Positions 11,666-27,805 of a stretch of DNA of 64,000 nucleotides are shown piece by piece (position 1 is the first letter of the stretch; every line of letters starts with the position of its first letter). The position numbers were made by a program, and so were the translations under genes. The stretch is taken from the IMG/VR virus record IMGVR_UViG_3300045391_007588, positions 4,079 through 68,078 of that record. One strand, given 5' to 3'. A model generated the notes under the pieces. That model was given only the letters and a program-made list of their open reading frames with translations, was not told where the DNA came from and searched no databases. This DNA comes from a virus.

Positions 11666-11741
11666 TCCTGGCTTACTTAGTCCGTTCTGTTGCCGATCTG
11701 TGGCTGTTCTGTAAGCCAACCCAACTTGGTCTCATGGGGGC

Positions 11742-12132: not shown

Positions 12133-12157
12133 CGGTTTTCAAAACGTGGAGACACAA

Positions 12158-12655
12158 ATGGAACTGAATATCGAAAAAGAAATCGCGGCGCTGCAGCGTA
12201 TGACCATTGATCAGCTGCGGAACAGGTTTTGGGACGTGTTTGGCGAACAGACACATGCCCGCAACAAGGAATGGTTGGTGCGTCGGATCGCCTGGCGCAT
12301 TCAAGCGCAAGTTGAAGGCGATTTGTCTGAACGTGCCCGCCAGCGAGCTAGCGAGCTTGCCAATGATGCCGACCTCCGCGTTTCCGCGCCAAAAGCGGTT
12401 GTCCCCGCGGCGGCGCCGGAACGCACCATGACCGCCAAAGTTGCCCTGACGGCCGACAACCGCCTGCCTTTACCGGGCACGATCATCACTCGGCCGTACA
12501 AGGGCCAGATGCTCCAGGTAAAGGTGCTGCGCGAGGGCTTCGAGTTCGAAGGTGAGGTCTTCAATTCGCTGAGCGCCGCCGCCAAACGAATCACTGGCTC
12601 GCACTGCAACGGATATCTCTTCTTCCGGCTCAGCGCCGAGAGGAGTGCAAAATGA
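12158..12655 (+). CDS. DUF2924 domain protein
   Basis: GGAG RBS; LVRRIAWRIQ, LPGTIITRPYKG, FEGEVFNSLSAAAKRITGSHCNGYLFF. Confidence 0.85.
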   Translation: MELNIEKEIAALQRMTIDQLRNRFWDVFGEQTHARNKEWLVRRIAWRIQAQVEGDLSERARQRASELANDADLRVSAPKAVVPAAAPERTMTAKVALTADNRLPLPGTIITRPYKGQMLQVKVLREGFEFEGEVFNSLSAAAKRITGSHCNGYLFFRLSAERSAK

Positions 12656-14223
12656 AGACCGCATCCCGAAAACAAACGTCGGCCCCACAAAAGCTGCGGT
12701 GCGCGGTCTATACGCGTAAGAGCACCGAGGAAGGGCTCCAGCAGGAATTCAACTCGCTCGACGCACAACGAGAGTCGGGTGAAGCTTATATCAAGAGTCA
12801 GGCACACGAAGGGTGGGAGTTGGTTCCCAGCCGGTATGACGATGGCGGCTACACCGGTGGAAACATGGATCGGCCGGCACTCCAGCGTCTACTTTCCGAC
12901 ATCGAGGCCGGCAAGATCAACGTCGTGGTCGTCTACAAGGTTGACCGCCTCAGCCGATCTCTGCTTGACTTCGCCAAGATGGTGGAGACGTTCGACAAGC
13001 ACCAGGTCTCGTTCGTCAGCGTCACGCAGCTGATCAATACGGCCACTTCGATGGGCCGCTTAATGCTGAATGTGCTGCTTTCGTTCGCACAGTTCGAGCG
13101 CGAGATCATCTCCGAACGGACCCGCGACAAGATTGCAGCGGCCCGTCGCAAGGGCAAATGGTCAGGCGGGATGCCGCTACTCGGATACAACGTTGTCGAC
13201 ACCAAGCTGGTCATCGATCTGGAGGAGGCCGAGCAGGTCCGCCAAATCTTCAGCCTGTACCTGGAACGCGAAGGGCTTATTTCCGTTGTCGAGGAGCTCG
13301 AACGCCGCAAATGGCGAACCAAGCGCTGGCGGACGCGCAAGCAGGTTGAGCGTGGCGGACGACCATTCAACAAGAACAGTGTTTGGCAGTTGCTCACCAA
13401 TCCCGTGTACATCGGCAAGGTCCGGTACAAGGAGGAGATCCATGATGGAGAACATCAAGCGATCGTTAGCAGCGAACTTTGGCAGCAGGTCCAATCCAAG
13501 CTCCAAAGGAATGGCCGTACTGGCGGTGCCGAAGTGCGGAACAAGTTCGGTGCATTTCTTAAGGGTCTACTGCACTGTGTGCCTTGTAAATGTGGAATGA
13601 CTCCCAGCCATTCCACTCGCAATGGCAACAAGCGCTATCGCTACTATGTCTGCACGGCGGCCCAATCACGAGGATGGCAAACATGTCCAACCCCATCAAT
13701 TCCCGCCGGTGAAATTGAGCGTTTCGTCGTCGAGCAAATCAAGTGCATCGGACGCGATCCGGCCCTCATCGCCGAAACCGTCCGACAGACCCATACCCAG
13801 GCGAAACAGAGGATTGAAGAACTCGACACCGAAGAAAATCGCCTGGAACGCGAACTGGCCTGGCATCACGGTGAATTGACGAAGCTTGTTACAAGACAAT
13901 CTGCTGAGAACGACTGCCCGGCGTCCGTCCGCCTCGCCGACGCACAGGAGCGAATCGGGGCAACCGAGCGGCGGCTGAGCGACATTCGAGACGAAATTGA
14001 ACGACTGCGCTCCCACCTGATTGACGAGTCCGAAATTGCCAAGGCACTCGCTGCGTTTGACCCAGTCTGGGAGACGCTAAGTCCAGGAGAGCAAAGCCGG
14101 CTGTTGCGGTTGCTCATCGAGCGCATCGACTACGACGGGCGGGACGGAACGATCTCAATCACGTTCCATGCCAATGGGATAAAGGCGATGGAAATCGACA
14201 AGCTGCAAGGAGACGCCGCATGA
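12652..14223 (+). CDS. Large serine recombinase
   Basis: YTRKSTEEG catalytic Ser, VYKVDRLSRS, SFAQFERE, Zn ribbon CVPCKC...YYVC, coiled coil. Confidence 0.95.
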   Translation: MKTASRKQTSAPQKLRCAVYTRKSTEEGLQQEFNSLDAQRESGEAYIKSQAHEGWELVPSRYDDGGYTGGNMDRPALQRLLSDIEAGKINVVVVYKVDRLSRSLLDFAKMVETFDKHQVSFVSVTQLINTATSMGRLMLNVLLSFAQFEREIISERTRDKIAAARRKGKWSGGMPLLGYNVVDTKLVIDLEEAEQVRQIFSLYLEREGLISVVEELERRKWRTKRWRTRKQVERGGRPFNKNSVWQLLTNPVYIGKVRYKEEIHDGEHQAIVSSELWQQVQSKLQRNGRTGGAEVRNKFGAFLKGLLHCVPCKCGMTPSHSTRNGNKRYRYYVCTAAQSRGWQTCPTPSIPAGEIERFVVEQIKCIGRDPALIAETVRQTHTQAKQRIEELDTEENRLERELAWHHGELTKLVTRQSAENDCPASVRLADAQERIGATERRLSDIRDEIERLRSHLIDESEIAKALAAFDPVWETLSPGEQSRLLRLLIERIDYDGRDGTISITFHANGIKAMEIDKLQGDAA

Positions 14224-14633
14224 CCAAGAGCGTTGTCTTTCAAACCAAAGTCCATTTCCGCTGTGGTCGGAACGGTCGTAGGCACCTTGAAATCAGCGAG
14301 TCATCACGAATGCCGCTGGAGACTGGCCGCGTGCCACGGCTTTCGCGGCTGATGGCACTCGCGATCCGGTTCAATGGGCTCATCCGCAGCGGTGCCATAG
14401 CCGATCAAGCTGAGCTTTCTCGTTTGGGGCACGTCACGCGGGCCCGAATTACGCAAATCATGAACCTGCTCTTGCTGGCCCCAGACATTCAGGAAGCGAT
14501 TCTGTTTTTGCCTCGCATCGAGCGCGGTCGCGATCAAATTCATTTGCGGCAGCTCCAGCCAATTGCTCAAGTGCCGGATTGGCGCAAGCAGCGGCGATTG
14601 TGGCTCGATCTGAATCCCACGAAAAAGTCCTAG
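14220..14633 (+). CDS. Conserved hypothetical HTH-like protein coupled to the recombinase
   Basis: ATGA overlap; RLMALAIRF...ELSRLGHVTRARITQIMNLLLLAPDIQEAIL. Confidence 0.7.
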   Translation: MTKSVVFQTKVHFRCGRNGRRHLEISESSRMPLETGRVPRLSRLMALAIRFNGLIRSGAIADQAELSRLGHVTRARITQIMNLLLLAPDIQEAILFLPRIERGRDQIHLRQLQPIAQVPDWRKQRRLWLDLNPTKKS

Positions 14634-14668
14634 TCATAGCCTTGGCTCCCTGGAATTAAGAGTGGCTA

Positions 14669-17404
14669 ATGTGCCAGCAGCAACTAATCCATGAGCCCGC
14701 AACCCTGGATGGTCCTGGCTGCACTCAATTGGCCGAGACCAGTACTGATGATCTTGTCCAACGCAACGTCGAAACCGCAACTCGGTTTCTCACATCACTC
14801 TTCGCCGAGAATCAGTTGGTCCTCTTCCGGCCTATCGAGACCTGGACGGAAGCCGGTCGCAAACGCAGCCGCGTCGACTACCACAGGACCTGTTATCGGG
14901 CTGCAGTGCCGGACCTGCTGAAACTCACAATCCTGGACCAAATACAGTCGGCCGAAGAGCAGCGGGTCAATCTTTTCTTCGGCGTCTGCCCACGTTTGGG
15001 TGACAAGGGACGATTTGATCTCGCTTGGCAGATTCGAACAGTGCGGGCGATGTGGACCGATATCGATCACGTGACTGTGAACGAGGCATTGGAGCGAGTG
15101 GCCAAGGCAGGTTTGCCTCGCCCGTCCATCGTCGTCAATTCGGGCAACGGTGCGCATCTCTATTGGCTGCTTGACCAAGCCTATCTGATCGACGACGTGG
15201 GTGAGCCACCGCCGGTACTGACAGAGTGGATCGCCTCCCCGGAAGGTCGCAAGAAGCCGCGGAGGTATCTGCTCGAGGGAGAAGAACGGATTTACCTCGA
15301 CCAAAGACGGCATGTTTCGCGGTTGAGCGCCAAGGCGGAGAGCGTCCAGAACATCTTGGCCGGCATCGCCAAGGCGTGTGGGGGCGATCACACGACCGAT
15401 CTGTCCCGTTTGTTGCGACTGCCTGGGACTCTTAACCGTAAGGACCAACGTAACGGCCGAAAGCCCGTCCCAACTGTTCTCGTCGAATGCGAATCCTCGC
15501 GGCGCTACCCGCTGGCCCTGTTCGAGCCGTTTACCTCGACGTCACCGGAGTCCGAACGGGCGAAGCAGATTGCAGCGATGCCACTGCCGCGCTCCCGCCG
15601 AGCGTCCGCCAGCAAATTAGACAAGCTTAATGAACTGGTCGCGGCCAGCTCGATTGCACCTGCCGGCACTCGCTCGGAGGCTGATTTCGGAGTCTGTTGT
15701 TTTGCGATCCGCAGCGGCGTCGCCAAGGAGGAAGTCTGGTCCCAGGTCGAGGGCATTGGCAAGTTCGCTGAGAAGGGCCGGCGCTATTTCGATGTGACCT
15801 GGGAAAATGCCGAGTATGACGTGCGGGTCGGCATTCACGACAAGCTTCAGAAAAAGCAAAAGTTGCAGCCGGCACCATCACCCCATGATGAAGCCTCGTC
15901 GGACGGGCAGTCCGACGGTCCGGCAGAATTGGATGACGACAGCGACGGGATCGAACGACCAACTATCCAGGTCGCCACCCAAACCACTCCAGTCGGCGCC
16001 ACGATGGGCCGGATCACGGATCATTTACTGGCCGCCGGCAACTGCTTTAGCCGCGCCGACCAGTTGGTAGTGGTCAACAATGAGGCCATCTCGCCAATTC
16101 TCTCAACACCCGAACTGGGCGGCCTGTTGAACCACTATGTCGAGTTCTACTTTATTGGCGACGAAACCGGCGAATATAAACCGCTCCCGCTGGCCTATGG
16201 AAACACGTGGCTGAACCATCCGGGCGAACGCGCTCGCCTGCCGGCGATCAAGCTGTTTTCTCGCAACCCCGTCTATACCGACGATTGGCGACTGGTTGCT
16301 CCAGGCTACGACTCCGTTTCCGGCATTTACTATGCCGGGCTGCCGGCGGAGCGACGCGATGGTACCACACATCTCGATCGGCTACTGAAGGATTTCTGTT
16401 TTAAGTCGGTCGCCGATCGCACGAATTATCTCGGGATGTTGCTGACGACACTGCTCGTCCCGCGTTTTATCGGCTCCAAGCCGGCCGTATTGTTCAACGG
16501 CAACCAGCCGGAGCTCGGCAAATCGATCCTTGCTCAGATTATTGCCATCTTGCGCGATGGCCATCCCGTGGAGACAGCGTCATACAACGCGAACGATGAA
16601 GAGTTCGAAAAACGGCTGGGGTCCATCGTCCGCCGCGGAGTGACGACGATCATCATTGACAACGCCAAATCCCGCGGACGTGAAGCGCGCATCGACTCGG
16701 CATGCCTCGAGCGGTCAATAACCGATTCGATCCTATCGTTCCGGCTGCTGGGGTACTCACAGGATATTCGGGCGGAGAACTCGCACATTTTCTGCCTGAC
16801 CGCCAATTCGGCCAATGTTAGCCGCGACCTTGTCACCCGCAGCGCTGTCATCAATCTGTTCTACGAGGGCAATCCCGAACGCCGGTCATTCTCAATTGCC
16901 GATCCAGAAGGCTATGCCCAGGAGCACCGATTGGAGCTGTACGGCGAGTTGATCGGGATGGTGGAGCGGTGGAAGGAGGCCGGCCAACCGCTCGCCAGCG
17001 TGGATTCGCGATTCAACAAGCGGGGCTGGGGCAAGGTCATCGGCGGAATTCTGGACGCCTGTGGAGAGCCGGATTTCCTGTCCAACGCCGAAGAGGCGGC
17101 GACCCAGCTCGACGACACCCGTCGCGAGTTCACCGAACTCGTCGCCATCATGGGCGACCATCCGCAGGGAATCTGGACCGCTGCAGAGCTGAGCGATCTC
17201 TGTGTCAGGCACGAACTGCTGCAGATTGAGCGCGGTGATGGGTCGGCCCGCTCCCAGGCGACTCGGATGGGTGTCATAGCCGGGCGTTACGTTTCCGAAC
17301 ATTTCAGCTTGAGTGATGGTCGCGCCGCGATCTTCCACAGGACCGAGGACCGCAAAGGAAAGCTGTACAAGGTCGAAATCACGGACCAAGTGCCGAACGT
17401 TTGA
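14669..17404 (+). CDS. Primase-helicase replication protein (RepB-like AEP primase + PriCT-like + P-loop NTPase)
   Basis: WTDID, VNSGNGAHLYW and DLSRLLRLPGTLN primase motifs; GNQPELGKS Walker A and IIIDN Walker B. Confidence 0.8.
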   Translation: MCQQQLIHEPATLDGPGCTQLAETSTDDLVQRNVETATRFLTSLFAENQLVLFRPIETWTEAGRKRSRVDYHRTCYRAAVPDLLKLTILDQIQSAEEQRVNLFFGVCPRLGDKGRFDLAWQIRTVRAMWTDIDHVTVNEALERVAKAGLPRPSIVVNSGNGAHLYWLLDQAYLIDDVGEPPPVLTEWIASPEGRKKPRRYLLEGEERIYLDQRRHVSRLSAKAESVQNILAGIAKACGGDHTTDLSRLLRLPGTLNRKDQRNGRKPVPTVLVECESSRRYPLALFEPFTSTSPESERAKQIAAMPLPRSRRASASKLDKLNELVAASSIAPAGTRSEADFGVCCFAIRSGVAKEEVWSQVEGIGKFAEKGRRYFDVTWENAEYDVRVGIHDKLQKKQKLQPAPSPHDEASSDGQSDGPAELDDDSDGIERPTIQVATQTTPVGATMGRITDHLLAAGNCFSRADQLVVVNNEAISPILSTPELGGLLNHYVEFYFIGDETGEYKPLPLAYGNTWLNHPGERARLPAIKLFSRNPVYTDDWRLVAPGYDSVSGIYYAGLPAERRDGTTHLDRLLKDFCFKSVADRTNYLGMLLTTLLVPRFIGSKPAVLFNGNQPELGKSILAQIIAILRDGHPVETASYNANDEEFEKRLGSIVRRGVTTIIIDNAKSRGREARIDSACLERSITDSILSFRLLGYSQDIRAENSHIFCLTANSANVSRDLVTRSAVINLFYEGNPERRSFSIADPEGYAQEHRLELYGELIGMVERWKEAGQPLASVDSRFNKRGWGKVIGGILDACGEPDFLSNAEEAATQLDDTRREFTELVAIMGDHPQGIWTAAELSDLCVRHELLQIERGDGSARSQATRMGVIAGRYVSEHFSLSDGRAAIFHRTEDRKGKLYKVEITDQVPNV

Positions 17405-17603
17405 CCGTTTGCCGAACGTTTGGCGAACGTTTGAAAACCCCAACATTCGGCACTTTAAATCATTACAGGAAAACCAGATGCGACGAGCTGCCGAACGTTG
17501 CCGAACCTTTTTGGTAACCCCACACATGTACGCGCGCGCGTGCGCGCCCGCACGCGGAAATCGAACGCTGGGAAAACGTTCGCAACGTTCGGCAGGTTCG
17601 GCA
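17391..17603. repeat. Iteron-like putative replication origin
   Basis: TGCCGAACGTT-type units at 17391, 17410, 17421, 17489, 17499 (direct) and 17575, 17584, 17594 (inverted), around a 27-bp alternating purine/pyrimidine tract. Confidence 0.6.
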
Positions 17604-17641
17604 TAGGTGCATTCGACGCCATCCATTGGTCAAGGACTTAG

Positions 17642-17893
17642 ATGACCCACCACCCCCAAAATGTGCACCCTCCGATCGCGGGTGCGGCTCACACTAAGGC
17701 GAAAACGTCGGTCTGCATCGACTGGTACGCCGAGGGCGAGACTAAGGTCGTCGAGGTCGATGGCATCCGCATAACCGTCCGTTTCATTGGTCGAAAGGGC
17801 CGGCGCGGGCGAATTGCGATTGAGGCGCCAGCGGGAGCGGTGTTTCGGGCGGCTGATCGAAGAGTGGTTATGGATCGTTCGACATCCTGGTAG
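17642..17893 (+). CDS. CsrA-like small protein
   Basis: GETKVVEVDGIRITVRFIGRKGRRGRIAIEAP resembles the CsrA beta-strand pattern. Confidence 0.5.
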   Translation: MTHHPQNVHPPIAGAAHTKAKTSVCIDWYAEGETKVVEVDGIRITVRFIGRKGRRGRIAIEAPAGAVFRAADRRVVMDRSTSW

Positions 17894-17977
17894 ATGTCGG
17901 ACTCGCCGCCTTGAGAGTAATTCCTGTTGCGACGCCGCCGGCGTTGGGTTCCGGCGGTACAGTACTCTCGTCTGTAC

Positions 17978-19477
17978 TCAATGAGAGTACTCAGACGGAC
18001 TACGGATATTGCCATTTACAACGAACACGAAAACCTTCGAAACGTAAATTGTTTGCCCGTCATGGCCGTGCGTGGCCACGTCAACGAGTCTCACGTCATT
18101 TCGAATGTCGCCTGTCGGTTGTGTTTTTTCTGTGAGGTCAAGCACCAAAACAACGCTGACCTGTCGTGCCTCGACACCTTCGTATTGAACCGGTTGCCGC
18201 GTATATTTCGCGCATATTTTTTCGCGACTGCCGACGTCCTTTTCGACTTTTAACTCCACGATTACTCCACGGTACCGGATATCAGCGCTGCCGCCGGCTT
18301 GGCTCGGATGTTCTTCCACGTCTTGTCCAAGCCGAAGGCGCAAGTCTTTTACGACGTTTCTCTGAAACTCTCGCTCACCGATCTCCGTCGTTTCCTTGAA
18401 GTAAGCGGACTGGGCGTAAGCCCCGAGAAGCGTGTTGAGTGCCTCCAGTAGCGGTATCAGTTCCTGCAGCTCATCTTTTACAGAGGGAGAATCCTTCACC
18501 AATTTTTCCAAGAGATCGGCAATGTGCTGGTCCATCCTCTGATAGCCGCTCATTATTCCTGCACGCTGGAGATCAACAACCTTAAACTCTAGCTGGCTAT
18601 CGCCGATGACCGGGACTTCGGAATACGAGCCGTCCAAATTCTTAAAAGCGCCTCGAACGGCGAACACGACATTTTCGGCCAGCATGCTCTGTGCCACTTT
18701 GAAACTGAGGTGCCCCGCAATCACCCCTTCGTATTCGAGTCTCTCGACCACGCTTGGTTTAGCCAAAGTAAACTCAGACGCCGAAAAATCGGTCATCGGA
18801 CATGTTGTAACAAGGTCAAGACATAGTTTTTCAGCGTCTTTTGGCCAAGCCGTTCCTCGAATGGAGAAATTCAGTGAGTACAACACGCTCGAACGAATGC
18901 GCATCGGCGACACAAGAGGATCGTTGTCAAGCGAGGCGGTTGCTTTGACGAGCGGCGGCGCACTCTCCTCCTCATCGTCGTCCGCGGAATGTCGCCGAGA
19001 ACCATACTTCCGATCCACCTTTTTCCAATACGTAACTGGAATGGCGAGCGTGCGAAGAAAGAAAAGCAGACCAGCAGTGTCAATAGACTTGTCGCTGTTT
19101 TGAAAAAAGCTCGGCTCTGCGGAGGTGCCATTTACTGCCAAATCCCTTATTGCTGCGAGGCATTCTTTCAGTTCGGCAATTAAGACGGATAGCCGCTCAC
19201 GCTCGCTTACGATGTCACCTTGGGCTCCACGAGCAATTTGCCGACAAATCGAGTCGCTCTTCAGGACGCGAAGGCTCGCGATCACAATTTTTATCGTCTC
19301 TAAACTGGAGTCGGCTGCTTTGGAGGCGTGCGACTCTAGTAACTCGATTAGCGCCGACACTTCTGTTACCCAATTGGCTTGGAAAGGGTCTTGTGACATC
19401 AGACCGCGAAATTTTGCAATCAGCAGGGTTGCGGAATAGGCAAGCCCTACGTCTATTCCATCACGCCACATTGTCAT
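17978..19477 (-). CDS. Protein with C-terminal PD-(D/E)xK restriction-endonuclease-like domain
   Basis: EREFQ...EEHPSQAGGSADIRYRGVIVELK...QPVQY motif series; ATGA-coupled to the upstream gene. Confidence 0.7.
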   Translation of the reverse strand: MTMWRDGIDVGLAYSATLLIAKFRGLMSQDPFQANWVTEVSALIELLESHASKAADSSLETIKIVIASLRVLKSDSICRQIARGAQGDIVSERERLSVLIAELKECLAAIRDLAVNGTSAEPSFFQNSDKSIDTAGLLFFLRTLAIPVTYWKKVDRKYGSRRHSADDDEEESAPPLVKATASLDNDPLVSPMRIRSSVLYSLNFSIRGTAWPKDAEKLCLDLVTTCPMTDFSASEFTLAKPSVVERLEYEGVIAGHLSFKVAQSMLAENVVFAVRGAFKNLDGSYSEVPVIGDSQLEFKVVDLQRAGIMSGYQRMDQHIADLLEKLVKDSPSVKDELQELIPLLEALNTLLGAYAQSAYFKETTEIGEREFQRNVVKDLRLRLGQDVEEHPSQAGGSADIRYRGVIVELKVEKDVGSREKICAKYTRQPVQYEGVEARQVSVVLVLDLTEKTQPTGDIRNDVRLVDVATHGHDGQTIYVSKVFVFVVNGNIRSPSEYSH

Positions 19478-22065
19478 TCCTTGTTCAGGCTCGCGAATAG
19501 CTTGTCAGCCGCTACTTCATCTCGCTTTTGAAGCTTAGAGTTGGCTGCCGCGACACTGGCCAATTGATTCAGGGTGTTTGCAAACTGCTCGGAACTTCGC
19601 TCTCCTTCGAGTCCTCGCTGGGCTGCAATCAGTGTGTCATGTTCGGCATCAAAATCGAAATGTTCAGAGAAAATGCTGGCAAAATGTAGAGACTCCCATG
19701 CATCCTTCTGAGCCAGAGCGGTTGCCGCGGAAACCAATTGAGGCCGCAGCGAGGGATACACTGAATTTGGAATCTGGCTGAGCCATTCAAACATGTATGC
19801 GCGATGGCAAGACTCGTAGCTGTTGTAGCGATCACGATCGTATTTCGTCAGGCAATGTAGAAGTAGCTTGGCCACGTGGACCGAACCACGTTCACCAGGG
19901 TCGACGTATCTAATAATCTCTTCTGCCATCTTCTCGTCGATCAAGTATTCGGATGTTGGTAAAACTGCCAGCACATACGAAAGACCATACGGCCATAGCT
20001 CGTCATGTCGTTTCGAAACGCTCAGCGTTGTCTCGCAAATATCCTCGAGATCGTAGGGCTGGTCCTTGTACGCCCCGAGTAGACCGGCCAATGCATTGAG
20101 TGCCTCAATTGCCTGGCCAGTTGTCAACCACCGCGAATTGCGCTGAAGAGCTCGGACTGCAGATTGATGTACGATGACATAGCGGTCACGAAGATGGACA
20201 AGAAGTACGTCAACGACGTTTCTGGGTGGGCACGACGACGAGTGACGATACATCTCCACAACAGCTCGAATACCCGACGCGCGTACAAGCGTCGATTCAT
20301 AGTCCATCAAGGCGTTCATCATTACAGGCAGTACGCGCGGAGCAACAACATAGTCTTTGCCAGCTTCACCCAAGAGAGAAATCAGATCGCTTTTGAATTT
20401 TTCGTTGCCCTTTGTCGGAAGCGCGAGATATGACTTAACTATTGAATCAGCAACGACCGCAGGGCGGTCTTCCGCCAGGGATTTCAGACATTCGAGCTGC
20501 TTGTGCTTGAAGGCATCCCATTCTTGTTTTCGGTTAACCTGTTCAAAGTGCCTCGCCAACTTGTCGTCCTCGACTGACTGTCCCGGCAAGACGAGCTTTT
20601 GCCGGGGCGGCGGCGGTGCGTCAACCTGACAAAGCAGTGCAAACTGTCCCAGAAAGTGTTCAAAGTGCGGAAGTACCAGGTCAGGGAAATCACGGCACGC
20701 GGCTTCGATCGCCTCGCCAGCTTCTCGCCGTGTCGAAGGTTCAAGAGAGCAATCACCTTGAAACTCGATGCACCGCGCGAGCGCGATTTTCCTCGCCTCG
20801 CCGGGCTCGGCCGGCTTGCGTTCGCGTTTGGGGCGCCAAACAGAATCTCGCGGTCCGCGAAGCACGGCCGTATACACCTCAATGATTTCTTCCTGAACCG
20901 CTGGCCGTTTTGCCTTGATTGCTAGAGCGAGGTATTCATCCACCTTTTGCGGCCATCGGGAAAAACAGTCTGCGATGCACTCTTCAGCCTTGCCATCTGC
21001 ACTGCCCATGTACACGTCATCGGGAAGGTCCAGCGCATCGACGAGTGATTTAAGCAGATCAACGCCGACCTGCGGCCTCAATTGCTGAAGCAAGCCAAGA
21101 GCTCCGCACGTGTTTACACGAACGTATTTATCTTCACTTCGTAGCAATTGTTCAAAGATAGAAATCACACTTTGGGGCTCGGCGTCGTAGGATCGAGCAA
21201 GCAACTCGGTGTTCGACTCAAACGTAGAGCGGACATTTTCCCTGCTACCGATCGAAACCGTATGCCGCTGACTTGTAATCAGACGAACTATCTGGTCCTT
21301 ATCGAGTGGGTAGCGAACAGTCTGTTTTGCCTGAACGAGCACACTCGCGGCTTGCTCGGGGTGAACTTTGATTGCGGCACTCGCCGCGGCGACGATACGC
21401 TCCGCGAGATCATTCCGACGCGATACCAGTTCGGCGCAGACTGGCAGGCAGCACGCGCCAAATTCACTCGTTTTCGACTGCTCAATAAGAAGATCGATAC
21501 CGACCGACGGGAACAGCTCGGCACCAATTTTTGCCGACTGAACTAAGAGCTCCTGCACCTTTGCTTTAGATGCTTGATCCTCATCGAACAATCCCTCAAT
21601 AAACTCAAGTATCTGGCGAGCATTCAATTCGGAGGTTTTTTTTGCGCGACGCGGTAGCTCCCGGAGTTCTGCCCGAATAAGCTTACGTTGCTCTTCGCGT
21701 TCCCTTGTCACGCGTTCCTGTTCGCGTTGTCGCCGTTCGTGCTCATTGATGATGGCCATGCCCCATGCCGGATTGCCATTCGGTTCATGATGGGGACAAC
21801 CCGCACAATAATCGCACAAGAACTTAGGTACGATCCACGGCAGATTCATCGATTCGGTTTCACCTTCCGCATACCTACACGAGATTCGGTGGCTGCCGAT
21901 TGGAAGGCCGGACATTTCCGCGAGTAGTCCTGCAGAAACCATTTCAATGCGAATGTGCTTGCACCACTGGCGAGCGCTTTTAATGTGCTCTGCGTTGCGT
22001 TCCCCAAGTTCGTACTTTTTGTCCAAGTCGCGGCGGTGAGACTCATTCAGCTTGCCCATGCCCAT
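19474..22065 (-). CDS. HEAT/ARM-repeat protein with N-terminal Cys/His cluster
   Basis: CKH...HRISC...CDYCAGCPHH, coiled coil, then repeats such as DKYVRVNTCGALG, STLVRASGIRAV, YVIVHQSAVRAL. Confidence 0.75.
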   Translation of the reverse strand: MGMGKLNESHRRDLDKKYELGERNAEHIKSARQWCKHIRIEMVSAGLLAEMSGLPIGSHRISCRYAEGETESMNLPWIVPKFLCDYCAGCPHHEPNGNPAWGMAIINEHERRQREQERVTREREEQRKLIRAELRELPRRAKKTSELNARQILEFIEGLFDEDQASKAKVQELLVQSAKIGAELFPSVGIDLLIEQSKTSEFGACCLPVCAELVSRRNDLAERIVAAASAAIKVHPEQAASVLVQAKQTVRYPLDKDQIVRLITSQRHTVSIGSRENVRSTFESNTELLARSYDAEPQSVISIFEQLLRSEDKYVRVNTCGALGLLQQLRPQVGVDLLKSLVDALDLPDDVYMGSADGKAEECIADCFSRWPQKVDEYLALAIKAKRPAVQEEIIEVYTAVLRGPRDSVWRPKRERKPAEPGEARKIALARCIEFQGDCSLEPSTRREAGEAIEAACRDFPDLVLPHFEHFLGQFALLCQVDAPPPPRQKLVLPGQSVEDDKLARHFEQVNRKQEWDAFKHKQLECLKSLAEDRPAVVADSIVKSYLALPTKGNEKFKSDLISLLGEAGKDYVVAPRVLPVMMNALMDYESTLVRASGIRAVVEMYRHSSSCPPRNVVDVLLVHLRDRYVIVHQSAVRALQRNSRWLTTGQAIEALNALAGLLGAYKDQPYDLEDICETTLSVSKRHDELWPYGLSYVLAVLPTSEYLIDEKMAEEIIRYVDPGERGSVHVAKLLLHCLTKYDRDRYNSYESCHRAYMFEWLSQIPNSVYPSLRPQLVSAATALAQKDAWESLHFASIFSEHFDFDAEHDTLIAAQRGLEGERSSEQFANTLNQLASVAAANSKLQKRDEVAADKLFASLNKE

Positions 22066-22516
22066 AGCAGACCTCCTTGCAATCGGAGCGAGCCGATGGC
22101 TAATCCAATGATGTTCCTTCAGGTTCGGGCTTTCATCTTACTTCATACGACTTTCTAACCCAGTCCAAAGAGCTACAGTCGAACGCGTTCGAGGTTCACC
22201 TTGAGCTCTCTCGCGCGACTTATTTTAGTCCCCGCCCGCTCTCGTGACTCCCGGCCCGAGATCTTCGCGCGTACAAGCGTTGCGCTGGTGCCTGCCATAC
22301 CTGCTCACTGCTAGTTACCGAGAGCTGACAGAGGGCGTCCTTCATGCGGAATACCAGTCTCGCATTTTCCAATTCGCCAATGCGGGTATAATGATGGGAG
22401 TACGTCCCGTCAGTGGCAGGCATTTTCTGGTCCGCCTGCCCGCCGCGCCGGTCTTTCCAGCGCCGCTCTCCGCATCTCGGAGCAACCAGCACGAAACCTC
22501 GTGCCCTTGCTCCATC

Positions 22517-23815
22517 ATGAAAATCGAACTCTGGCCCATTAACCGGGTCACGCCCTACGACCGCAATCCGCGGATTAACGACTCGGCAGTCGATTACGTA
22601 GCCGCCTCAATCCGTGCATTTGGCTTCCGCCAGCCAATCGTCGTCGACACGAACGGCGTCATTGTCGTCGGCCATACCCGGTGGAAAGCGGCCCAGAAAC
22701 TGGGTTTGACTCAAGTTCCAGTCCACGTCGCCCAGGATTTAACGCCTGAACAGATCAAGGCCTATCGCATCGCCGACAATAAGACCAACGAGCTGGGCGA
22801 GTGGGACGCGACGCTGTTACCGCTGGAACTGGCTGATCTCCAGGCGTTGAACTTCGACCTTTCGCTCCTTGGCTTCAGCTCCGACGAACTCAGCGAGTGG
22901 CTCGATCCGGGTGTCCAGACAGGTCAGTGCGATCCCGACGACATTCCCGCGCCGCCGGACGACGCCGTTACGAAGTCCGGCGACCTGTGGCTTTTAGGTG
23001 ATCATCGCCTGCTCTGCGGCGATTCGAGCAAGCCCGAGGACGTGGATCGATTGCTCGACGGGGCCGCGATTCACCTGGTCAATACTGACCCGCCATACAA
23101 CGTGAAAGTCGAGCCCCGGAGCAACAATGCGATCGCCGCAGGACTGAGCTCGTTCGCTAACACCCACCATCAAGGGCTCGACCTAGCTCGCCATCCGGGC
23201 AAGTCCAAACCGACGCAGAAGAAACTGCGGGCCAAAGACCGTCCGCTCGCCAATGATTTTGTTAGCGACACGCAGTTCGACAAACTGCTTACTGCTTGGT
23301 TCGGCAACATGGCGCGCGTGCTGGCGCCTGGCCGGAGCTTCTATATCTGGGGCGGCTATGCCAACTGCGGCAACTATCCGCCCGTGCTCAAAGCGAGCGG
23401 TCTGTTCTTCAGCCAGGCCGTCATCTGGGTGAAAGAGCACCCGGTCCTCACGCGCAAAGACTTCATGGGCAATCATGAATGGGCATTCTACGGCTGGCGC
23501 GAGGGCGCTGGGCACCGATTCTTCGGCCCCAACAATGTGCCCGACGTCTGGTCGGTAAAGAAGTTGCATTCCAGCAAGATGGTCCATTTGACGGAGAAGC
23601 CAGTCGAGCTGGCAGTCCGGGCCATGCAATATTCCTCTCGCGCTGGCGAGAACGTGCTGGACATGTTCGGAGGAAGCGGAAGCACGCTGATCGCGGCCCA
23701 GCAGACGAGCCGCAAAGCGTTCCTCATGGAACTCGATCCGTTGTATTGCGACGTGATCGTCGAGCGTTTTGAGAAGTTCTCGGGAAAGAAGGCAGAACGG
23801 CAGGTGGCCGCGTGA
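22517..23815 (+). CDS. ParB/Srx domain fused to N6A/N4C DNA methyltransferase (beta class)
   Basis: PYDRNPR...GFRQPIVVD...GHTR ParB domain; TDPPYN motif IV precedes LDMFGGSGST motif I. Confidence 0.9.
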   Translation: MKIELWPINRVTPYDRNPRINDSAVDYVAASIRAFGFRQPIVVDTNGVIVVGHTRWKAAQKLGLTQVPVHVAQDLTPEQIKAYRIADNKTNELGEWDATLLPLELADLQALNFDLSLLGFSSDELSEWLDPGVQTGQCDPDDIPAPPDDAVTKSGDLWLLGDHRLLCGDSSKPEDVDRLLDGAAIHLVNTDPPYNVKVEPRSNNAIAAGLSSFANTHHQGLDLARHPGKSKPTQKKLRAKDRPLANDFVSDTQFDKLLTAWFGNMARVLAPGRSFYIWGGYANCGNYPPVLKASGLFFSQAVIWVKEHPVLTRKDFMGNHEWAFYGWREGAGHRFFGPNNVPDVWSVKKLHSSKMVHLTEKPVELAVRAMQYSSRAGENVLDMFGGSGSTLIAAQQTSRKAFLMELDPLYCDVIVERFEKFSGKKAERQVAA

Positions 23816-24138
23816 TCTACCTCGCCAGCCCATATTCTCATCCCGATCCGCTGTTTCGCGAAGCACGATTCCAAGCTGCGTGCCACGCCACGGCTCAACT
23901 TATCCGCGCTGGCCACTCGGTGTTCTCGCCCATCGTGCACGGGCACCCTTTAGCTCGTTTCGGCCTCCCGACCGATTGGGCTTTTTGGCAGCGATTTGAC
24001 GAGGAGCACGTGAAGCGATGCGACGCGTTGCTCGTCCTGCAGATCGAGGGTTGGCGGGAAAGCGAAGGCGTCCAGGCTGAGATAGCGCTGGCGACTTCGC
24101 TGGGAATGCAAGTCGGCCACTTGGAGCCCGCTCAATGA
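23812..24138 (+). CDS. DUF1937 family protein
   Basis: MIYLASPYSHPD...VFSPIVHGH...W..SEGVQAEI. Confidence 0.8.
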   Translation: MIYLASPYSHPDPLFREARFQAACHATAQLIRAGHSVFSPIVHGHPLARFGLPTDWAFWQRFDEEHVKRCDALLVLQIEGWRESEGVQAEIALATSLGMQVGHLEPAQ

Positions 24139-24437
24139 TGCTATCGACGATTGTCGGGATCGAAGCAGAACGGCGACACTTCATCAAAGCTCGCGAAGCG
24201 GGTGCCTTTCTGCGTTGCGCGGTCACTTCTGACCACGTGAATGATCAAGCCAATCGATTAGAGAATCTGAAATGGCTGGACTCGAATTCACAGGAACTCA
24301 CTTGGTTTGTAGTGCTTTCACTTGGACGCCCACGTTCGCCACGTCCCGGGGCGGCCCCACGATTGGTCCGTCGTCCAACCAACGAGAAAGAGGCCCGTTT
24401 CCGGGCCTCCAGGGCGACGACGGGCCGTTCCTGCGCC

Positions 24438-24734
24438 CTATTTCGACGAGAACTTTCCGCGTTCCGCCTTCACGAAACGCGAGTCTTTTCCCTTGACGTT
24501 GATTTCGCGAATGATGGCGCTATAGAGCGTGGCATGCGGCGTCTTGCCGCCAGGACTAGTCCACAGCCCTTGCTGGGCCATCGCCTCGATCATTTCTTTG
24601 GCGGTCATGGGGCCCTTCGCGCCGGCGAGCATCTGCGCGGCTGCGTTGACGGCGCTGAGCTTTTTCTCCTTCGGCGCTTTGCCCCCCTTTGCCTTCGTGG
24701 TCGTCTTGGCTTTGCTGCTCTTTTTCGCGGACAT
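24438..24734 (-). CDS. HARE-HTH-type winged-helix protein with Lys-rich N-tail
   Basis: MSAKKSSKAKTTTKAKGGK then LSAVNAAAQML...GKTPHATLYSAI.REI...RF. Confidence 0.7.
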   Translation of the reverse strand: MSAKKSSKAKTTTKAKGGKAPKEKKLSAVNAAAQMLAGAKGPMTAKEMIEAMAQQGLWTSPGGKTPHATLYSAIIREINVKGKDSRFVKAERGKFSSK

Positions 24735-24880
24735 GATCAGTCTCCGTGCTTGAGGTATGTGGGCGTCGCCACAGCGGCAATGCCTCACATCGACAGTCAG
24801 TTACCTCAGCTTCGCGGCCACATCCAGCCAATTCCGGCTCGAATTCCCAATGTTTTTCGGCCTGGCGCAGGAGGCTAAAC

Positions 24881-25567
24881 ATGAGCGTGACGCCGGCTCG
24901 AAAACTGGCCATCCTGCAGCGCCGGCAGAAGGTAGCCGACCTCTTGCTGCAAAGTTGGACGCAGGACGCGATCGCACAGGAACTGGGGATTAGCCAAGCG
25001 CAGATCGCGGCTGACCTCAAAAAGATTCGGCGGGCCTGGCAAGAATCGTCGATCCGGGATTTTGACGCCGCCAGGGATTTAGAACTGGAACGCCTCGGAC
25101 GGATCGAGCGCGAGGCTTGGGCTGCCTGGCAGCGCTCGCAGCAGCCCAGCCAATCGGCTACGGTCGACGGCCCGACCGGTTCGCAGAAAGCCCGACGAAC
25201 CATGAAACACCAATACGGCGATCCCCGCTTTCTCGATATCGCCCTGCGGTGCAACGAGGCCCGTCGCAAGATTCTGGGGATCGATGCCCCCTCCAAAATC
25301 GCGCCCACGACGCCGGACGGTCAGCCCCTGACTGTCGAGGAGCGTCGGATTCACATCAACGCCATCCTCACCGAGCAGTTTGGCATCGCGGCCATAGTCC
25401 CGAGTAATGACGCGGAGGAACCAGAGGATGAAAGCCGAACGACTGAGAAAGCTGTTGGAGAACATGACGGACGAGGAACTGGCCCGCTTGAGTCCGCTCT
25501 CAGCTCAAGCGACGCGGACCCGCCGTCCTCATCCGCGACAGGCGGAGTTTCTTGGGCTCAATTGTGA
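24881..25567 (+). CDS. HTH protein, putative terminase small subunit
   Basis: GGAGG RBS; WTQDAIAQELGISQAQIAADL HTH; immediately upstream of the large subunit. Confidence 0.6.
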   Translation: MSVTPARKLAILQRRQKVADLLLQSWTQDAIAQELGISQAQIAADLKKIRRAWQESSIRDFDAARDLELERLGRIEREAWAAWQRSQQPSQSATVDGPTGSQKARRTMKHQYGDPRFLDIALRCNEARRKILGIDAPSKIAPTTPDGQPLTVEERRIHINAILTEQFGIAAIVPSNDAEEPEDESRTTEKAVGEHDGRGTGPLESALSSSDADPPSSSATGGVSWAQL

Positions 25568-26942
25568 AGAAGCTCTCTACGGCGGTGCCGCCGGCGGAGG
25601 CAAGACCGAGGCGCTTCTGATGTGGCTGGCGCAAGGGATCACAGTCCCCGGTTATTCGGCCGTTTTCTTTCGCCGCACCTACGCCCAGCTGGCTAAGTCG
25701 AACGATTCACCACTGACCAAGTCGCACGACCTGTTTCGGCCGTTGGGCGGTAAATACAAAGCCAGCGAATACCGCTGGAACTTTCCCAGCGGCGCGTCGA
25801 TCGAGTTTGGCCACCTCCAGCACGAGATGAGCGTGATGGACTACCAAGGCCCCGCGTATCATCGGGTCGCCTTTGACGAGTTGACCCAGTTCTCGGAGCA
25901 ACAGTATCTGTATCTTTTCAGCCGGATGCGGATGCGGAAGGATTTTCCGATCAAGATGGGCGTTCGCGCGGCCAGTAACCCCGGTGGTCCGGGTCATACG
26001 TGGGTCCGGCAGCGGTTCATTACTCTGGACGCCGAGAAGGCCGTCCAAACGCTAGGCGCCTACCAACCGAGCCCGCTTGGGCTAGTTTTCTGGCCGGCTC
26101 CTGACCGGGCGTTTGTTCCGGCGCGGGTTGCCGACAATCCGTCCCTGGACATCGAAGATTACGTGGGACGCCTCCGAACGCAACTGCCGCCCGTACTCAG
26201 GCAGCGACTACTTAACGGCGACTGGTCCATTGTGGAAGACGCGGCCATCCGCCTGGATTGGCTCCGCTATTACGAAATGCGAGGAGAGATGTTGGTACCG
26301 CTTGATGCCACAGGCAAGTCGATTGACACCGTCGACTGCCGCGAATGTCAGCGGTTCGCCACGATCGATACGGCGGGCACAAGCAGGCAGAAGGCGGCCG
26401 AGCGCAAGGGAAAGCCCGCGAGTTGGTCGGTTTGCCAGATCTGGGAATACTGGCCCAAGCCCAAGTTTCTGTTCCTGCGCCACGTTTGGCGGGACCGCGT
26501 GGGCTGGGACGGCCTGAAGTCCGCTGTTCGCCACACCCTGAGCCAGTGGCAACCCAAGCGGGTGCTGATCGAAAATGCCCATCACGGGCCACCCCTCAAG
26601 GCAGAGTTATCAGGCTTTCCCACCGAACTCGTTAGTCCTGTGCCTTCTGGTGTTCGGGGCGAAGAGGGCAAGCCAGGCAAACTGGAGCGAGCCACAACAC
26701 TGCTCACCAAGCTGGAGAAAGGCGAGGTGTTCTTGCCTCGTTATAACAACCAATGGCTCCCGGAATTGGAGGCCGAATGGCTCGCTTGGACCGGCTTGGA
26801 TGACGAAACAAGCGACCAGGTCGATGCAGCAGCCTATGCCGCCCGGCACGCAACGGGGAATTGCGCGGTGATGCTATGGGCCCCCATAAGTGTGCCTCGG
26901 AATACTTACGGCTCCCTCAATTGGAACTGGCCCAATGGCTGA
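25428..26942 (+). CDS. Terminase large subunit (Terminase_6-like)
   Basis: GGAAGGGKT Walker A, VAFDELTQF Walker B, ASNPGG, IDTAG and SDQVDA RNase H-like acidic residues. Confidence 0.9.
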   Translation: MKAERLRKLLENMTDEELARLSPLSAQATRTRRPHPRQAEFLGLNCEEALYGGAAGGGKTEALLMWLAQGITVPGYSAVFFRRTYAQLAKSNDSPLTKSHDLFRPLGGKYKASEYRWNFPSGASIEFGHLQHEMSVMDYQGPAYHRVAFDELTQFSEQQYLYLFSRMRMRKDFPIKMGVRAASNPGGPGHTWVRQRFITLDAEKAVQTLGAYQPSPLGLVFWPAPDRAFVPARVADNPSLDIEDYVGRLRTQLPPVLRQRLLNGDWSIVEDAAIRLDWLRYYEMRGEMLVPLDATGKSIDTVDCRECQRFATIDTAGTSRQKAAERKGKPASWSVCQIWEYWPKPKFLFLRHVWRDRVGWDGLKSAVRHTLSQWQPKRVLIENAHHGPPLKAELSGFPTELVSPVPSGVRGEEGKPGKLERATTLLTKLEKGEVFLPRYNNQWLPELEAEWLAWTGLDDETSDQVDAAAYAARHATGNCAVMLWAPISVPRNTYGSLNWNWPNG

Positions 26943-27131
26943 TTGTGCATGTGCGCAACTCGCGGTCATTATCAGCGCCCATGGTTATCAGTTACCCGGC
27001 TTTGCGGGGGGATGCTGGAAGATGGTAACCATTTCCTTGAAAGTGGTTACCAGTTTGGCGCTTGAGGTGCGGCGCACGTCGAGGTAACTGTGCGAGCGCT
27101 GGATTTTTATTCAACGCTCGGAGATTCCTCG

Positions 27132-27782
27132 ATGCACGCCTACTCCACCTGGAACATCGACGCCTCGCAGATCTTGTCGCGTCGAGAATTGGACACAGTG
27201 CTGCGTGATCTGAAGCGCCGCGCCACTCGATTGCCAAACGTCCAAATGAATCTGGCTATCCTGCGCCTCGCCTGTTGCTGCGGTCTACGGGCCAGTGAGA
27301 TCGGCGGACTTCGACTCGGGGACGTGCGCGTCGATGTCGGGCGACCACATCTCCTGATTCGAGCCGAGCACGCCAAGCTCATGCGTCCGCGCCGCATTCC
27401 ACTGTGGTGGGACGCGGGAACTCTGGCCGACCTAACTGCGTGGCGCAATTATCGGCACGCTCAAGGCGCGAAGCGGGGCGATCCTTTCATCTGCTCGCTA
27501 CGGCATGCAACCATGGGCGATCATCTCAATCGCCACGTCCTGCGCCGTCGTTTCCACACGGCCTGCCGCGTACTGGGTTGGGATCGACTGCGCACCCTGA
27601 CAATTCACCACGGTCGGCATACCTTTATTAGCCATGCACTTGCCGGCGGACGGAGCCTTGCTGAGGTGAAGGCAGCAGCAGGACACGCGAGTCTGCTGAC
27701 CACGAGCGTTTACCTGCACGTGGTGGTGGATGAGCCTGAGGAATTGGGATCGCTTTTTGCCCCAACGTACACCGTGGATTAG
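27132..27782 (+). CDS. Minimal tyrosine recombinase (catalytic domain only, 216 aa)
   Basis: GLRASE (Arg), IHHGRH (HxxR), AGHASLLTTSVY (His/Tyr); no arm-binding or core-binding domain. Confidence 0.9.
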   Translation: MHAYSTWNIDASQILSRRELDTVLRDLKRRATRLPNVQMNLAILRLACCCGLRASEIGGLRLGDVRVDVGRPHLLIRAEHAKLMRPRRIPLWWDAGTLADLTAWRNYRHAQGAKRGDPFICSLRHATMGDHLNRHVLRRRFHTACRVLGWDRLRTLTIHHGRHTFISHALAGGRSLAEVKAAAGHASLLTTSVYLHVVVDEPEELGSLFAPTYTVD

Positions 27783-27805
27783 CGGCTGGATTTGGCGGTC
27801 GATAT
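27442..27805 (+). repeat. 364-bp direct repeat, copy 1 (recombinase 3' half plus 23 bp downstream)
   Basis: Aligns without gaps to 52959-53322. Confidence 0.9.

What the first reader, a model, noticed from the sequence alone, without database searches (positions are those of the whole stretch)
17978..22065. Two-gene HEAT-solenoid plus PD-(D/E)xK nuclease cassette in a satellite hotspot: candidate new antiphage system
Seen: the only large antisense insert in the element, between origin and ParB-MTase. Gene 1 (863 aa) has a Cys/His Zn-like N-terminus, coiled coil and long HEAT-like repeats. Gene 2 (499 aa, ATGA-coupled) has a helical N-terminus, a beta-rich middle and an intact E...D...ELK nuclease motif. 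Spot-checked lines look lower in GC than the flanks (not computed). Established: satellites carry variable defence cassettes at fixed hotspots, and repeat-solenoid sensor plus nuclease effector is a common defence logic. I do not recognise this pair as a named system; it has no NTPase or methylase. Inference: a sensor-activated nuclease. Alternative: one gene split by a frameshift.
Basis: partly seen in the sequence, partly recalled or inferred. Interest (0 to 1): 0.75.

Follow-up and report, generated by a model that had tools for sequence, protein, structure and literature searches.

The report
Divergent Olokun antiphage gene pair
The two genes are a distant but complete copy of Olokun, a two-gene bacterial anti-phage system (helical-repeat partner plus DNA-cutting enzyme) first reported in 2022, carried here as foreign cargo on a mobile element; they are real and probably defensive, but not a new system.

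Summary
Both ORFs exist exactly as described: 863 aa at 19474-22065(-) and 499 aa at 17978-19477(-), with an ATGA overlap. The cassette has 52.3% GC against 58.2% for the rest of the element. The domain reading also holds: a Cys4 head, a long helix and a HEAT solenoid in gene 1; a helical head, a beta-sandwich and a C-terminal D399/E408-x-K410 nuclease in gene 2.

The claim that this is an unnamed system fails. Gene 2 hits the PADLOC OloB model (2e-9). The gene 1 family aligns end to end with OloA of the Stenotrophomonas-type Olokun (hhalign 100%, E 5e-62, 811 columns), and the gene 2 family aligns with its OloB (99.5%, E 8e-23). The experimentally verified E. coli Olokun (Millman et al. preprint, Table S2) has the same layout: OloA 'Adaptin_N' 857 aa plus OloB 'Nuclease' 490 aa.

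The pair is adjacent in all 23 full-length genome loci examined. Rare natural OloA-OloB fusions exist, and neighbours are often R-M or other defence genes. PADLOC's OloA model misses this gene 1 and 38 of the 56 family members scanned, including this one, so automated tools would not call the system.

Fourteen related elements lack the cassette at this position.

The scan has noted Olokun at least 38 times on other DNA, never this sequence.

Verdict: new, divergent member of a known kind.

The parts
19474..22065 (-). oloA-like gene (863 aa, P0001)
   Evidence: ORF. The family profile aligns end to end with OloA of the Stenotrophomonas-type Olokun: hhalign 100%, E 4.9e-62, 811 columns. 18 of 56 family members hit PADLOC OloA and no other PADLOC family.
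21781..22065 (-). N-terminal Cys4 head of OloA-like protein (aa 1-95; C35, C63, C87-x2-C90), putative zinc site
   Evidence: The four Cys are invariant in 31/31 relatives (A2) and in 22/22 proteins of the verified-type OloA family (A7). The model shows helix + 3 strands + helix, pLDDT about 90. BLASTP against the Stenotrophomonas-type OloA gives 3e-15. Metal binding is inferred.
21640..21768 (-). Long single helix (aa 100-142), Arg/Glu-rich
   Evidence: DSSP on the model, H100-142.
19480..21627 (-). HEAT/adaptin-like alpha-solenoid (aa 147-862)
   Evidence: Pfam HEAT at aa 301-327 reaches its cutoff; Adaptin_N hit is weak. Foldseek matches Kap121p, CAND1, SF3B1, importin-beta and AP2 beta, E 3e-7 to 4e-5.
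19474..19477 (-). ATGA stop/start overlap of the two genes, preceded by AAGGA
   Evidence: Sequence read directly.
17978..19477 (-). oloB-like gene (499 aa, P0002)
   Evidence: PADLOC OloB 2e-9 (aa 209-458) and LmuA 1e-15 (aa 299-498). BLASTP against the Stenotrophomonas-type OloB 6e-21 over aa 183-498. hhalign 99.5%, E 8.4e-23, 347 columns.
19145..19450 (-). N-terminal helical bundle of OloB-like protein (aa 10-111)
   Evidence: Model helices 10-27, 36-53, 59-82 and 89-111. By analogy with PfOlokun this would be the OloA-binding domain; that is inferred.
18575..18952 (-). Beta-sandwich domain (aa 176-301)
   Evidence: Model. VIA-align Z about 8 to Ig/cohesin/Fw-type sandwiches, which indicates a common fold only.
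18014..18319 (-). PD-(D/E)xK nuclease core (aa 387-488): E389, D399, E408-L-K410
   Evidence: D399, E408 and K410 are invariant in 27/27 and E389 is conserved in 25/27. The strand-strand-strand-helix-strand pattern follows helix 368-386. The same motif aligns with the Stenotrophomonas-type OloB.
22072..22078 (-). AAGGAGG ribosome-binding site 6 nt upstream of the oloA-like ATG
   Evidence: Sequence read directly.
17904..17991 (-). Three stem-loops spanning the oloB-like stop codon and the 84-bp convergent spacer to orf83; possible terminator
   Evidence: RNA fold -37.4 kcal/mol, z -2.79 against shuffles. There is no T-run and the consensus terminator scan did not pick it up, so function is not shown.

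Best explanation
The cassette is a divergent but complete Olokun-type anti-phage system (oloA-oloB), acquired horizontally by a mobile element, in the interval between its primase-like replication gene and its ParB-methyltransferase gene; an earlier scan note, unchecked here, assigns the element to a planctomycete.

The 863-aa OloA-like protein has a Cys4 head and a HEAT/adaptin-like solenoid and is the non-catalytic partner, acting as scaffold and probably as sensor. The 499-aa OloB-like protein is the effector, with a C-terminal PD-(D/E)xK nuclease.

By analogy with PfOlokun, the two proteins form a hetero-oligomer (2:2 in PfOlokun). [quoted passage not shown]

Shown here:
- Homology of both genes to Olokun, the same gene order, sizes and coupling, and intact catalytic residues.
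- Strict co-occurrence of the two genes, and natural fusions of them.
- Defence-gene neighbourhoods in other genomes.
- Foreign base composition, and absence of the cassette from 14 sister elements.

Inferred: complex formation, DNA as the target, the trigger, zinc binding, and protection itself.
For: Sequence homology:
- PADLOC OloB hit 2e-9 for gene 2.
- Distant gene 1 homologues hit OloA: P0284 at 1.5e-20, and 18 of 56 scanned family members, with no other PADLOC family matched.
- hhalign of the gene 1 family against the OloA family of the Stenotrophomonas/Lysobacter/Hyphomicrobium type gives 100%, E 4.9e-62 over 811 columns.
- hhalign of the gene 2 family against that type's OloB gives 99.5%, E 8.4e-23. 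Direct BLASTP gives 3e-15 and 6e-21.

Match to the verified system:
- Verified Olokun SG196 from E. coli 3-020-07_S4_C3 has OloA 'Adaptin_N' 857 aa and OloB 'Nuclease' 490 aa. Its OloA N-terminus shows the same WC-H / GLPIGH / C / CxxC pattern.

Association of the two genes:
- They are adjacent on the same strand in 23/23 full-length loci from six phyla.
- Fused proteins of 1323-1394 aa carry both parts in the N-to-C order OloA, OloB.

Catalytic residues and context:
- D399, E408 and K410 are invariant.
- Among 122 flanking ORFs of 16 loci there are type IIG, type I and type II R-M, DarG, mad2 and Dru/Drm methylase hits.

Foreign origin: GC 0.523 against 0.582, GC3 0.545 against about 0.70, and the cassette is absent from 14 related elements.
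Against: - PADLOC's OloA model does not hit gene 1 at all, and the OloB hit is weak and partial. Membership therefore rests on profile-profile and transitive homology at about 18-24% identity to the verified type.
- The first ~135 residues of gene 2 were not aligned to OloB.
- No member of this clade has been tested.
- No Olokun structure was found in the PDB to compare with.
- The nuclease fold itself was not confirmed by structure search, because other domains dominated the hit lists.
- No promoter-like site was found.
- Even for the verified Olokun, the trigger and the in vivo target are unknown.
Confidence: 0.82

Rival explanations
1. It is an Olokun homologue, but on this element it serves inter-element conflict or maintenance rather than host defence. 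For example, a capsid-less satellite could use it against its helper or against competing phages, or it could act as an addiction module.
For: The cassette sits inside a mobile element that has a terminase, recombinases and a primase-like gene but no detectable HK97 capsid or portal. It is the only copy found in the viral collections searched.
Against: Defence cargo on prophages and satellites normally protects the host as well, so this is more a nuance than an alternative. Most relatives are chromosomal and sit next to R-M and other defence genes. Nothing suggests toxin-antitoxin behaviour.
Confidence: 0.1
2. It is a new, unnamed sensor-nuclease system unrelated to any described one.
For: Gene 1 has no hit in PADLOC, NCBIfam or PHROGs and only generic HEAT hits in Pfam. 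The closest database relatives are 46-51% identical and unnamed.
Against: There is full-length profile homology of both genes to Olokun, and the architecture is identical to the verified system.
Confidence: 0.03
3. It is a single gene broken by a frameshift (pseudogene).
For: Fused 1323-1394-aa relatives exist, and the two frames overlap by 4 bases.
Against: The split, coupled form is the rule in 23/23 full-length genome loci and in the verified E. coli system. Gene 2 has its own AAGGA ribosome-binding site and ATG. Both frames are intact with all conserved residues present.
Confidence: 0.02
4. It is a Lamassu-type or restriction-type module, because the nuclease domain resembles the C-terminal domain of an LmuA model and a methyltransferase gene is adjacent.
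For: PADLOC LmuA PDLC03853 hit at 1.1e-15 on aa 299-498. ParB-N6/N4 MTase lies next door.
Against: The match covers the nuclease domain only. No LmuB/SMC-like hit was found among 10 neighbouring ORFs. The MTase is backbone and is kept by the 14 relatives that lack the cassette. Pelosinus proteins carry the same nuclease domain on a different N-terminus, so the domain is modular.
Confidence: 0.02

Closest known systems
Olokun (OloA/OloB), verified system SG196 from E. coli 3-020-07_S4_C3 (Millman et al., bioRxiv 10.1101/2022.05.11.491447, Tables S2 and S15) and PfOlokun (bioRxiv 10.1101/2025.07.10.664194)
   Same: - Two coupled genes in the order oloA then oloB.
- OloA about 860 aa with a Cys4 head and a HEAT/adaptin-like solenoid.
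- OloB about 490 aa with a helical head, a beta-rich middle and a C-terminal E..D..ExK nuclease.
- Full-length profile homology to the Stenotrophomonas-type family that represents this architecture.
   Different: - Only about 18% (OloA) and 24% (OloB) identity at profile level to the verified-type family.
- PADLOC's OloA model does not detect it.
- The clade is found mainly in Cyanobacteria, Planctomycetota, Chloroflexota, Latescibacterota and Acidobacteriota.
- This copy sits on a mobile element classed as a provirus.
- It is untested experimentally.
The 5xx+5xx-aa pairs that score highest on the PADLOC Olokun models (L034-L036)
   Same: A two-gene helical partner plus PD-(D/E)xK-type nuclease with overlapping genes. 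They are hit by the same two PADLOC models.
   Different: The nuclease-like motif is at the N-terminus of OloB, and OloA has no Cys4 head. BLASTP and hhalign find no similarity to this cassette or to the verified-type family.
Lamassu LmuA (PADLOC PDLC03853), C-terminal nuclease domain
   Same: Related nuclease domain, E 1.1e-15 over aa 299-498.
   Different: No SMC-like LmuB partner. The rest of the protein and the partner gene are different.
Eukaryotic HEAT solenoids (karyopherin-beta, CAND1, AP2 adaptin)
   Same: Overall alpha-solenoid fold of the OloA-like protein.
   Different: Fold resemblance only, at 9-14% identity. No functional relation is implied.

Membership tests
Olokun | OloB homologue (nuclease subunit) | tested here: met
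   PADLOC PDLC03926 at 2e-9. BLASTP 6e-21 and hhalign 99.5%, E 8.4e-23 against the OloB of a pair that scores 8e-51 on the model.
Olokun | OloA detected by the PADLOC OloA model PDLC03925 | tested here: not met
   No hit for P0001 at E <= 1 or on the record's DNA. Only 18 of 56 family members are detected. This is a limit of the model, not of the homology: see next row.
Olokun | OloA homologue by profile comparison with the verified-type family | tested here: met
   hhalign A2 against A7: 100%, E 4.9e-62, 811 aligned columns spanning 9-858 against 3-827. The reference pair scores 3e-45 on PDLC03925.
Olokun | Gene order oloA then oloB, same strand, adjacent or overlapping | tested here: met
   ATGA overlap. 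Same arrangement in 23/23 related full-length loci and in Millman Table S15.
Olokun | Architecture and sizes of the experimentally verified system (OloA 'Adaptin_N' 857 aa; OloB 'Nuclease' 490 aa) | tested here: met
   863 and 499 aa. The Cys4 pattern and the AGG..D nuclease motif are visible in the printed E. coli sequences. HEAT/Adaptin_N hits.
Olokun | Intact PD-(D/E)xK catalytic residues in OloB | tested here: met
   D399, E408 and K410 are present and invariant in 27/27 relatives.
Olokun | OloA-OloB complex formation (2:2 in PfOlokun) | not testable with these tools
   No multimer prediction is available. Supported indirectly by natural OloA-OloB fusions.
Olokun | Protection against phage | not testable with these tools
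   Needs cloning and a phage challenge.
Lamassu | LmuA effector together with an SMC-like LmuB partner | tested here: not met
   The LmuA model matches only the nuclease domain. Ten neighbouring ORFs gave no LmuB hit. The conserved partner is the HEAT protein.
Type II restriction-modification (with the adjacent ParB-MTase) | Nuclease and methyltransferase co-inherited as a unit | tested here: not met
   The MTase is present in 14 related elements that lack the cassette. The nuclease family is always paired with the HEAT gene instead.

The most novel reading that the evidence does not exclude
This deep-branching Olokun clade may differ functionally from the tested E. coli and Pseudomonas systems. 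It covers at least 170 OloB-like clusters and is largely invisible to PADLOC. One possibility is a different trigger read through the invariant Cys4 head of OloA. Another is that a capsid-less satellite uses it in conflict with its helper phage. In addition, the name 'Olokun' in current databases appears to cover two architectures with no similarity detected here, of which only this one has been experimentally verified.
Probability: 0.15. Interest if true: 0.5.

Novelty: new member of a known kind. Interest (0 to 1): 0.25.

Why it matters

Three things remain useful:
- It documents a large, divergent Olokun clade that the PADLOC OloA model misses (38 of 56 scanned members, including this one). 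Defence censuses of Planctomycetota, Cyanobacteria, Chloroflexota and Latescibacterota therefore undercount Olokun.
- It points to two conserved features that bear on a mechanism that is still poorly understood: an invariant Cys4 head on OloA, and natural OloA-OloB fusions.
- It gives a clean example of a defence system acquired as compositionally foreign cargo by one member of a family of mobile elements whose 14 relatives found in IMG/VR lack it.

Tried and rejected
- Pfam, NCBIfam and PHROGs gave nothing specific for either protein beyond HEAT.
- A PDB sequence search with the gene 2 profile gave only a chance hit.
- Foldseek and VIA-align on the whole gene 2 model were dominated by the helical bundle and the beta-sandwich, so the nuclease fold was not tested.
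- hhalign of both families against the three top-scoring PADLOC 'Olokun' pairs found nothing. This first looked like evidence against Olokun membership. Millman's Table S2 then showed that the verified system has the other architecture.
- The consensus promoter/terminator scan found nothing above chance.
- tblastn of gene 2 against GenBank phages found no match. A scan of IMG/VR with the gene 2 profile found no other copy.
The OloB comparison therefore used a single reference sequence.
- I could not put the E. coli sequences into tools, because they come from a paper's supplement and not from a sequence tool. The comparison with them is by eye plus the Stenotrophomonas-type proxy.
- A Lamassu reading and an R-M reading were considered and rejected: see Rival explanations.
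Full report
**Observation**

Gene 1 is 19474..22065 (863 aa, P0001) and gene 2 is 17978..19477 (499 aa, P0002). The junction reads AAGGAATGACAATG. The gene 1 stop overlaps the gene 2 ATG (ATGA) and an AAGGA ribosome-binding site precedes it. An AAGGAGG site lies 6 nt before the gene 1 ATG.

- The cassette has 52.3% GC, against 58.0% and 59.9% in the flanks.
- GC3 is 0.545, against 0.67-0.72 in the element's own genes.
- Only 1.7% of equal-sized windows in the 64 kb are as low.

These are the only large minus-strand genes between 10781 and 27805.

**Anatomy**

Gene 1 gave a confident AlphaFold2 model (pLDDT 89, pTM 0.78).
- It has a small alpha/beta head (aa 5-87), one long helix (100-142) and an unbroken helical solenoid to the C-terminus.
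- The solenoid matches karyopherins, CAND1, SF3B1 and AP2 adaptin in the PDB.
- Pfam HEAT just reaches its cutoff, and Adaptin_N is a weak hit.
- Four cysteines of the head (C35, C63, C87, C90) are invariant in 31/31 relatives. A zinc site is a reasonable inference but is not shown.

Gene 2 gave a model with pLDDT 78.5.
- It has a four-helix head (10-111), a beta-sandwich (176-301), a helical linker (313-386) and an alpha/beta core (387-488).
- D399, E408 and K410 are invariant in 27/27 relatives and E389 is conserved in 25/27.
- Whole-model fold searches were dominated by the first two domains, so they did not test the nuclease fold.

**Identity**

PADLOC gave the first lead. Gene 2 hits OloB (PDLC03926, 2e-9, aa 209-458) and the C-terminal domain of an LmuA model (1e-15). 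Gene 1 hits nothing.

Four lines of evidence then tied gene 1 to OloA.
1. An exhaustive phmmer search found 635 representative relatives of gene 1. Distant ones hit the OloA model (P0284, 1.5e-20). Proteins of 1323-1394 aa carry OloA and OloB matches in N-to-C order. One of these fusions, P0141, is 40% identical to gene 1 and 44% identical to gene 2.
2. A gammaproteobacterial pair of 851 + 481 aa (L037, 97% identical to a Stenotrophomonas geniculata protein) scores 3e-45 on OloA and 8e-51 on OloB. It is directly similar to gene 1 (BLASTP 3e-15 on the Cys4 head, 9e-5 on a HEAT segment) and to gene 2 (6e-21 over aa 183-498, including the nuclease motif).
3. Profile-profile comparison of the gene 1 family with that OloA family gives 100% probability, E 4.9e-62, over 811 columns, effectively end to end. 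The gene 2 family against the 481-aa OloB gives 99.5%, E 8.4e-23, over 347 columns.
4. Table S2 of the Millman et al. preprint lists the experimentally verified Olokun (SG196, E. coli 3-020-07_S4_C3). Its OloA is 'Adaptin_N', 857 aa, and its OloB is 'Nuclease', 490 aa. The printed OloA N-terminus shows the same WC-H, GLPIGH, C and CxxC landmarks. The printed OloB shows the AGG-x-x-D motif.

Sizes, order, coupling and domains therefore match the verified system. Table S15 of that preprint already lists Olokun in many phyla, including Planctomycetes, and lists Pseudomonas fluorescens NZ007, which from its 'Pf' prefix may be the source of PfOlokun.

**Conservation and context**

In 26 genome loci that encode relatives of gene 2, every full-length copy (23 loci) has a gene 1 relative immediately upstream on the same strand. 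A few are split or interrupted, in L008, L020 and L022. These genomes span Cyanobacteria, Planctomycetota, Chloroflexota, Latescibacterota, Acidobacteriota and Pseudomonadota.

Among 122 flanking ORFs from 16 of these loci, PADLOC finds type IIG, type I and type II R-M components, DarG, mad2 and Dru/Drm methylases. In L005, L006 and L012 an ORF of about 1030 aa lies directly upstream of the pair on the same strand; it was not scanned on its own, but type IIG models hit 3-4 of the 122 ORFs, so it may be one of these. This is a defence-island context.

The closest relatives of the window's proteins are only 46-51% identical and unnamed.

**The carrier element**

The window lies in an IMG/VR record classed as a provirus (69.5 kb, CheckV 86%). 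Around the cassette are:
- DUF2924 plus a large serine recombinase;
- a 911-aa primase/polymerase-like protein;
- a ParB-N6/N4 methyltransferase;
- a large terminase;
- a tyrosine-integrase-like protein.

No HK97 capsid or portal was detected in the record.

Fourteen related IMG/VR elements were found, with the primase-like protein 60-67% identical. They keep the primase-to-ParB-MTase arrangement. The interval between the two genes is 0.36-2.5 kb, filled with small same-strand ORFs at normal GC, and none has the cassette. The position is therefore variable and the cassette is a one-off acquisition. A recurrent defence hotspot is not shown.

No other viral record carried a relative of gene 2, either among GenBank phages or in IMG/VR. 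The methyltransferase is backbone, not a partner of the nuclease.

**Mechanism**

By homology, the most likely mechanism is that of Olokun. OloA-like and OloB-like proteins would assemble through the OloB helical head into a hetero-oligomer that juxtaposes two PD-(D/E)xK domains. The complex would cut phage DNA. PfOlokun degraded T7, SECphi17 and SPO1 DNA, nicked plasmid DNA and spared E. coli DNA in vitro.

Physical association is supported here by strict co-occurrence, translational coupling and natural fusions. The trigger, the role of the Cys4 head, the basis of self/non-self discrimination and protection itself are all inferred.

**Rivals**

- An unnamed system is excluded.
- A frameshifted single gene is excluded. 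The split form is the rule and has its own ribosome-binding site.
- Lamassu is excluded. Only the nuclease domain matches LmuA and there is no SMC-like partner. The same nuclease domain occurs on a different N-terminus in Pelosinus, so it is modular.
- An R-M reading is excluded.
- A role in inter-element conflict rather than host defence cannot be excluded, but it is a nuance.

**Why tools miss it, and a side observation**

The PADLOC OloA model detects only 18 of 56 full-length members of the gene 1 family.

The pairs that score best on both PADLOC models (578 + 578 aa; E 1e-87 to 1e-207) have a different layout. Their OloB has an N-terminal Mrr-like motif, and their OloA has no Cys4 head. 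BLASTP and hhalign find no similarity between them and either this cassette or the verified-type family.

The database name 'Olokun' therefore seems to cover two architectures. Only three sequences of the other type were compared, so remote homology is not excluded.

The scan's earlier notes hold 38 Olokun findings in at least 30 genomes. At least four of the eight shown describe an N-terminal, Mrr-like nuclease type. None shares sequence with this cassette.

**Verdict**

This is a new, divergent member of a known kind, and interest is low to moderate.

Noticed in passing
L034:3461-6921, L035:2542-5981, L036:2126-5369 compared with L037:3188-7166: The PADLOC Olokun models score two architectures. 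The first is 578+578-aa pairs with an N-terminal Mrr-like motif in OloB (E down to 1e-207). The second is 851+481-aa pairs with a Cys4+HEAT OloA and a C-terminal nuclease in OloB (E about 1e-45 to 1e-50). No BLASTP or hhalign similarity was found between the two. The verified E. coli Olokun is of the second type.
   Followed up: partly
L024:5846-7576 and L025:5855-7576 (Pelosinus): A protein of about 575 aa shares only the C-terminal 190-aa nuclease domain with gene 2 (54-55% identity). Its N-terminal part is different and carries a faint TPR hit. No OloA-like neighbour was detected, so the nuclease domain is modular.
   Followed up: partly
L005:1316-4405, L006:1278-4370, L012:1265-4363: An ORF of about 1030 aa lies directly upstream of the Olokun-like pair on the same strand in three genomes. 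Type IIG restriction-methyltransferase models hit 3-4 of the 122 flanking ORFs scanned (best E 2.8e-248), so these may be such enzymes, but per-ORF assignment was not shown. This may be a recurrent two-system island.
   Followed up: no
L008:2355-3548 and 5378-6610; L020:4314-6688; L022:4379-6938: In three genomes the OloA-like gene is in two pieces. In L008 the pieces are about 1.8 kb apart, which suggests an insertion. In L020 and L022 they overlap or abut, which suggests frameshifts. These are probably inactivated copies or assembly errors.
   Followed up: no
window 10781-27805: The carrier element has DUF2924 plus a serine recombinase, a 137-aa recombinase-associated protein, a primase/polymerase-like 911-aa protein, a ParB-MTase, a large terminase and a tyrosine-integrase-like protein. 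No HK97 capsid or portal was detected in the whole 69.5-kb record. Two of four related records checked showed only sub-threshold portal-like hits.
   Followed up: partly
window 28191-29087: The trypsin-like protease ORF gives a weak hit to another LmuA model (PDLC03855, 4.8e-5). It sits next to the TIR-like ORF that was flagged in a separate note.
   Followed up: no
window 17904-17991: Three consecutive stem-loops lie in the 84-bp convergent spacer between orf83 and the oloB-like stop codon (-37.4 kcal/mol, z -2.8). There is no T-run. This could be a bidirectional terminator.
   Followed up: partly
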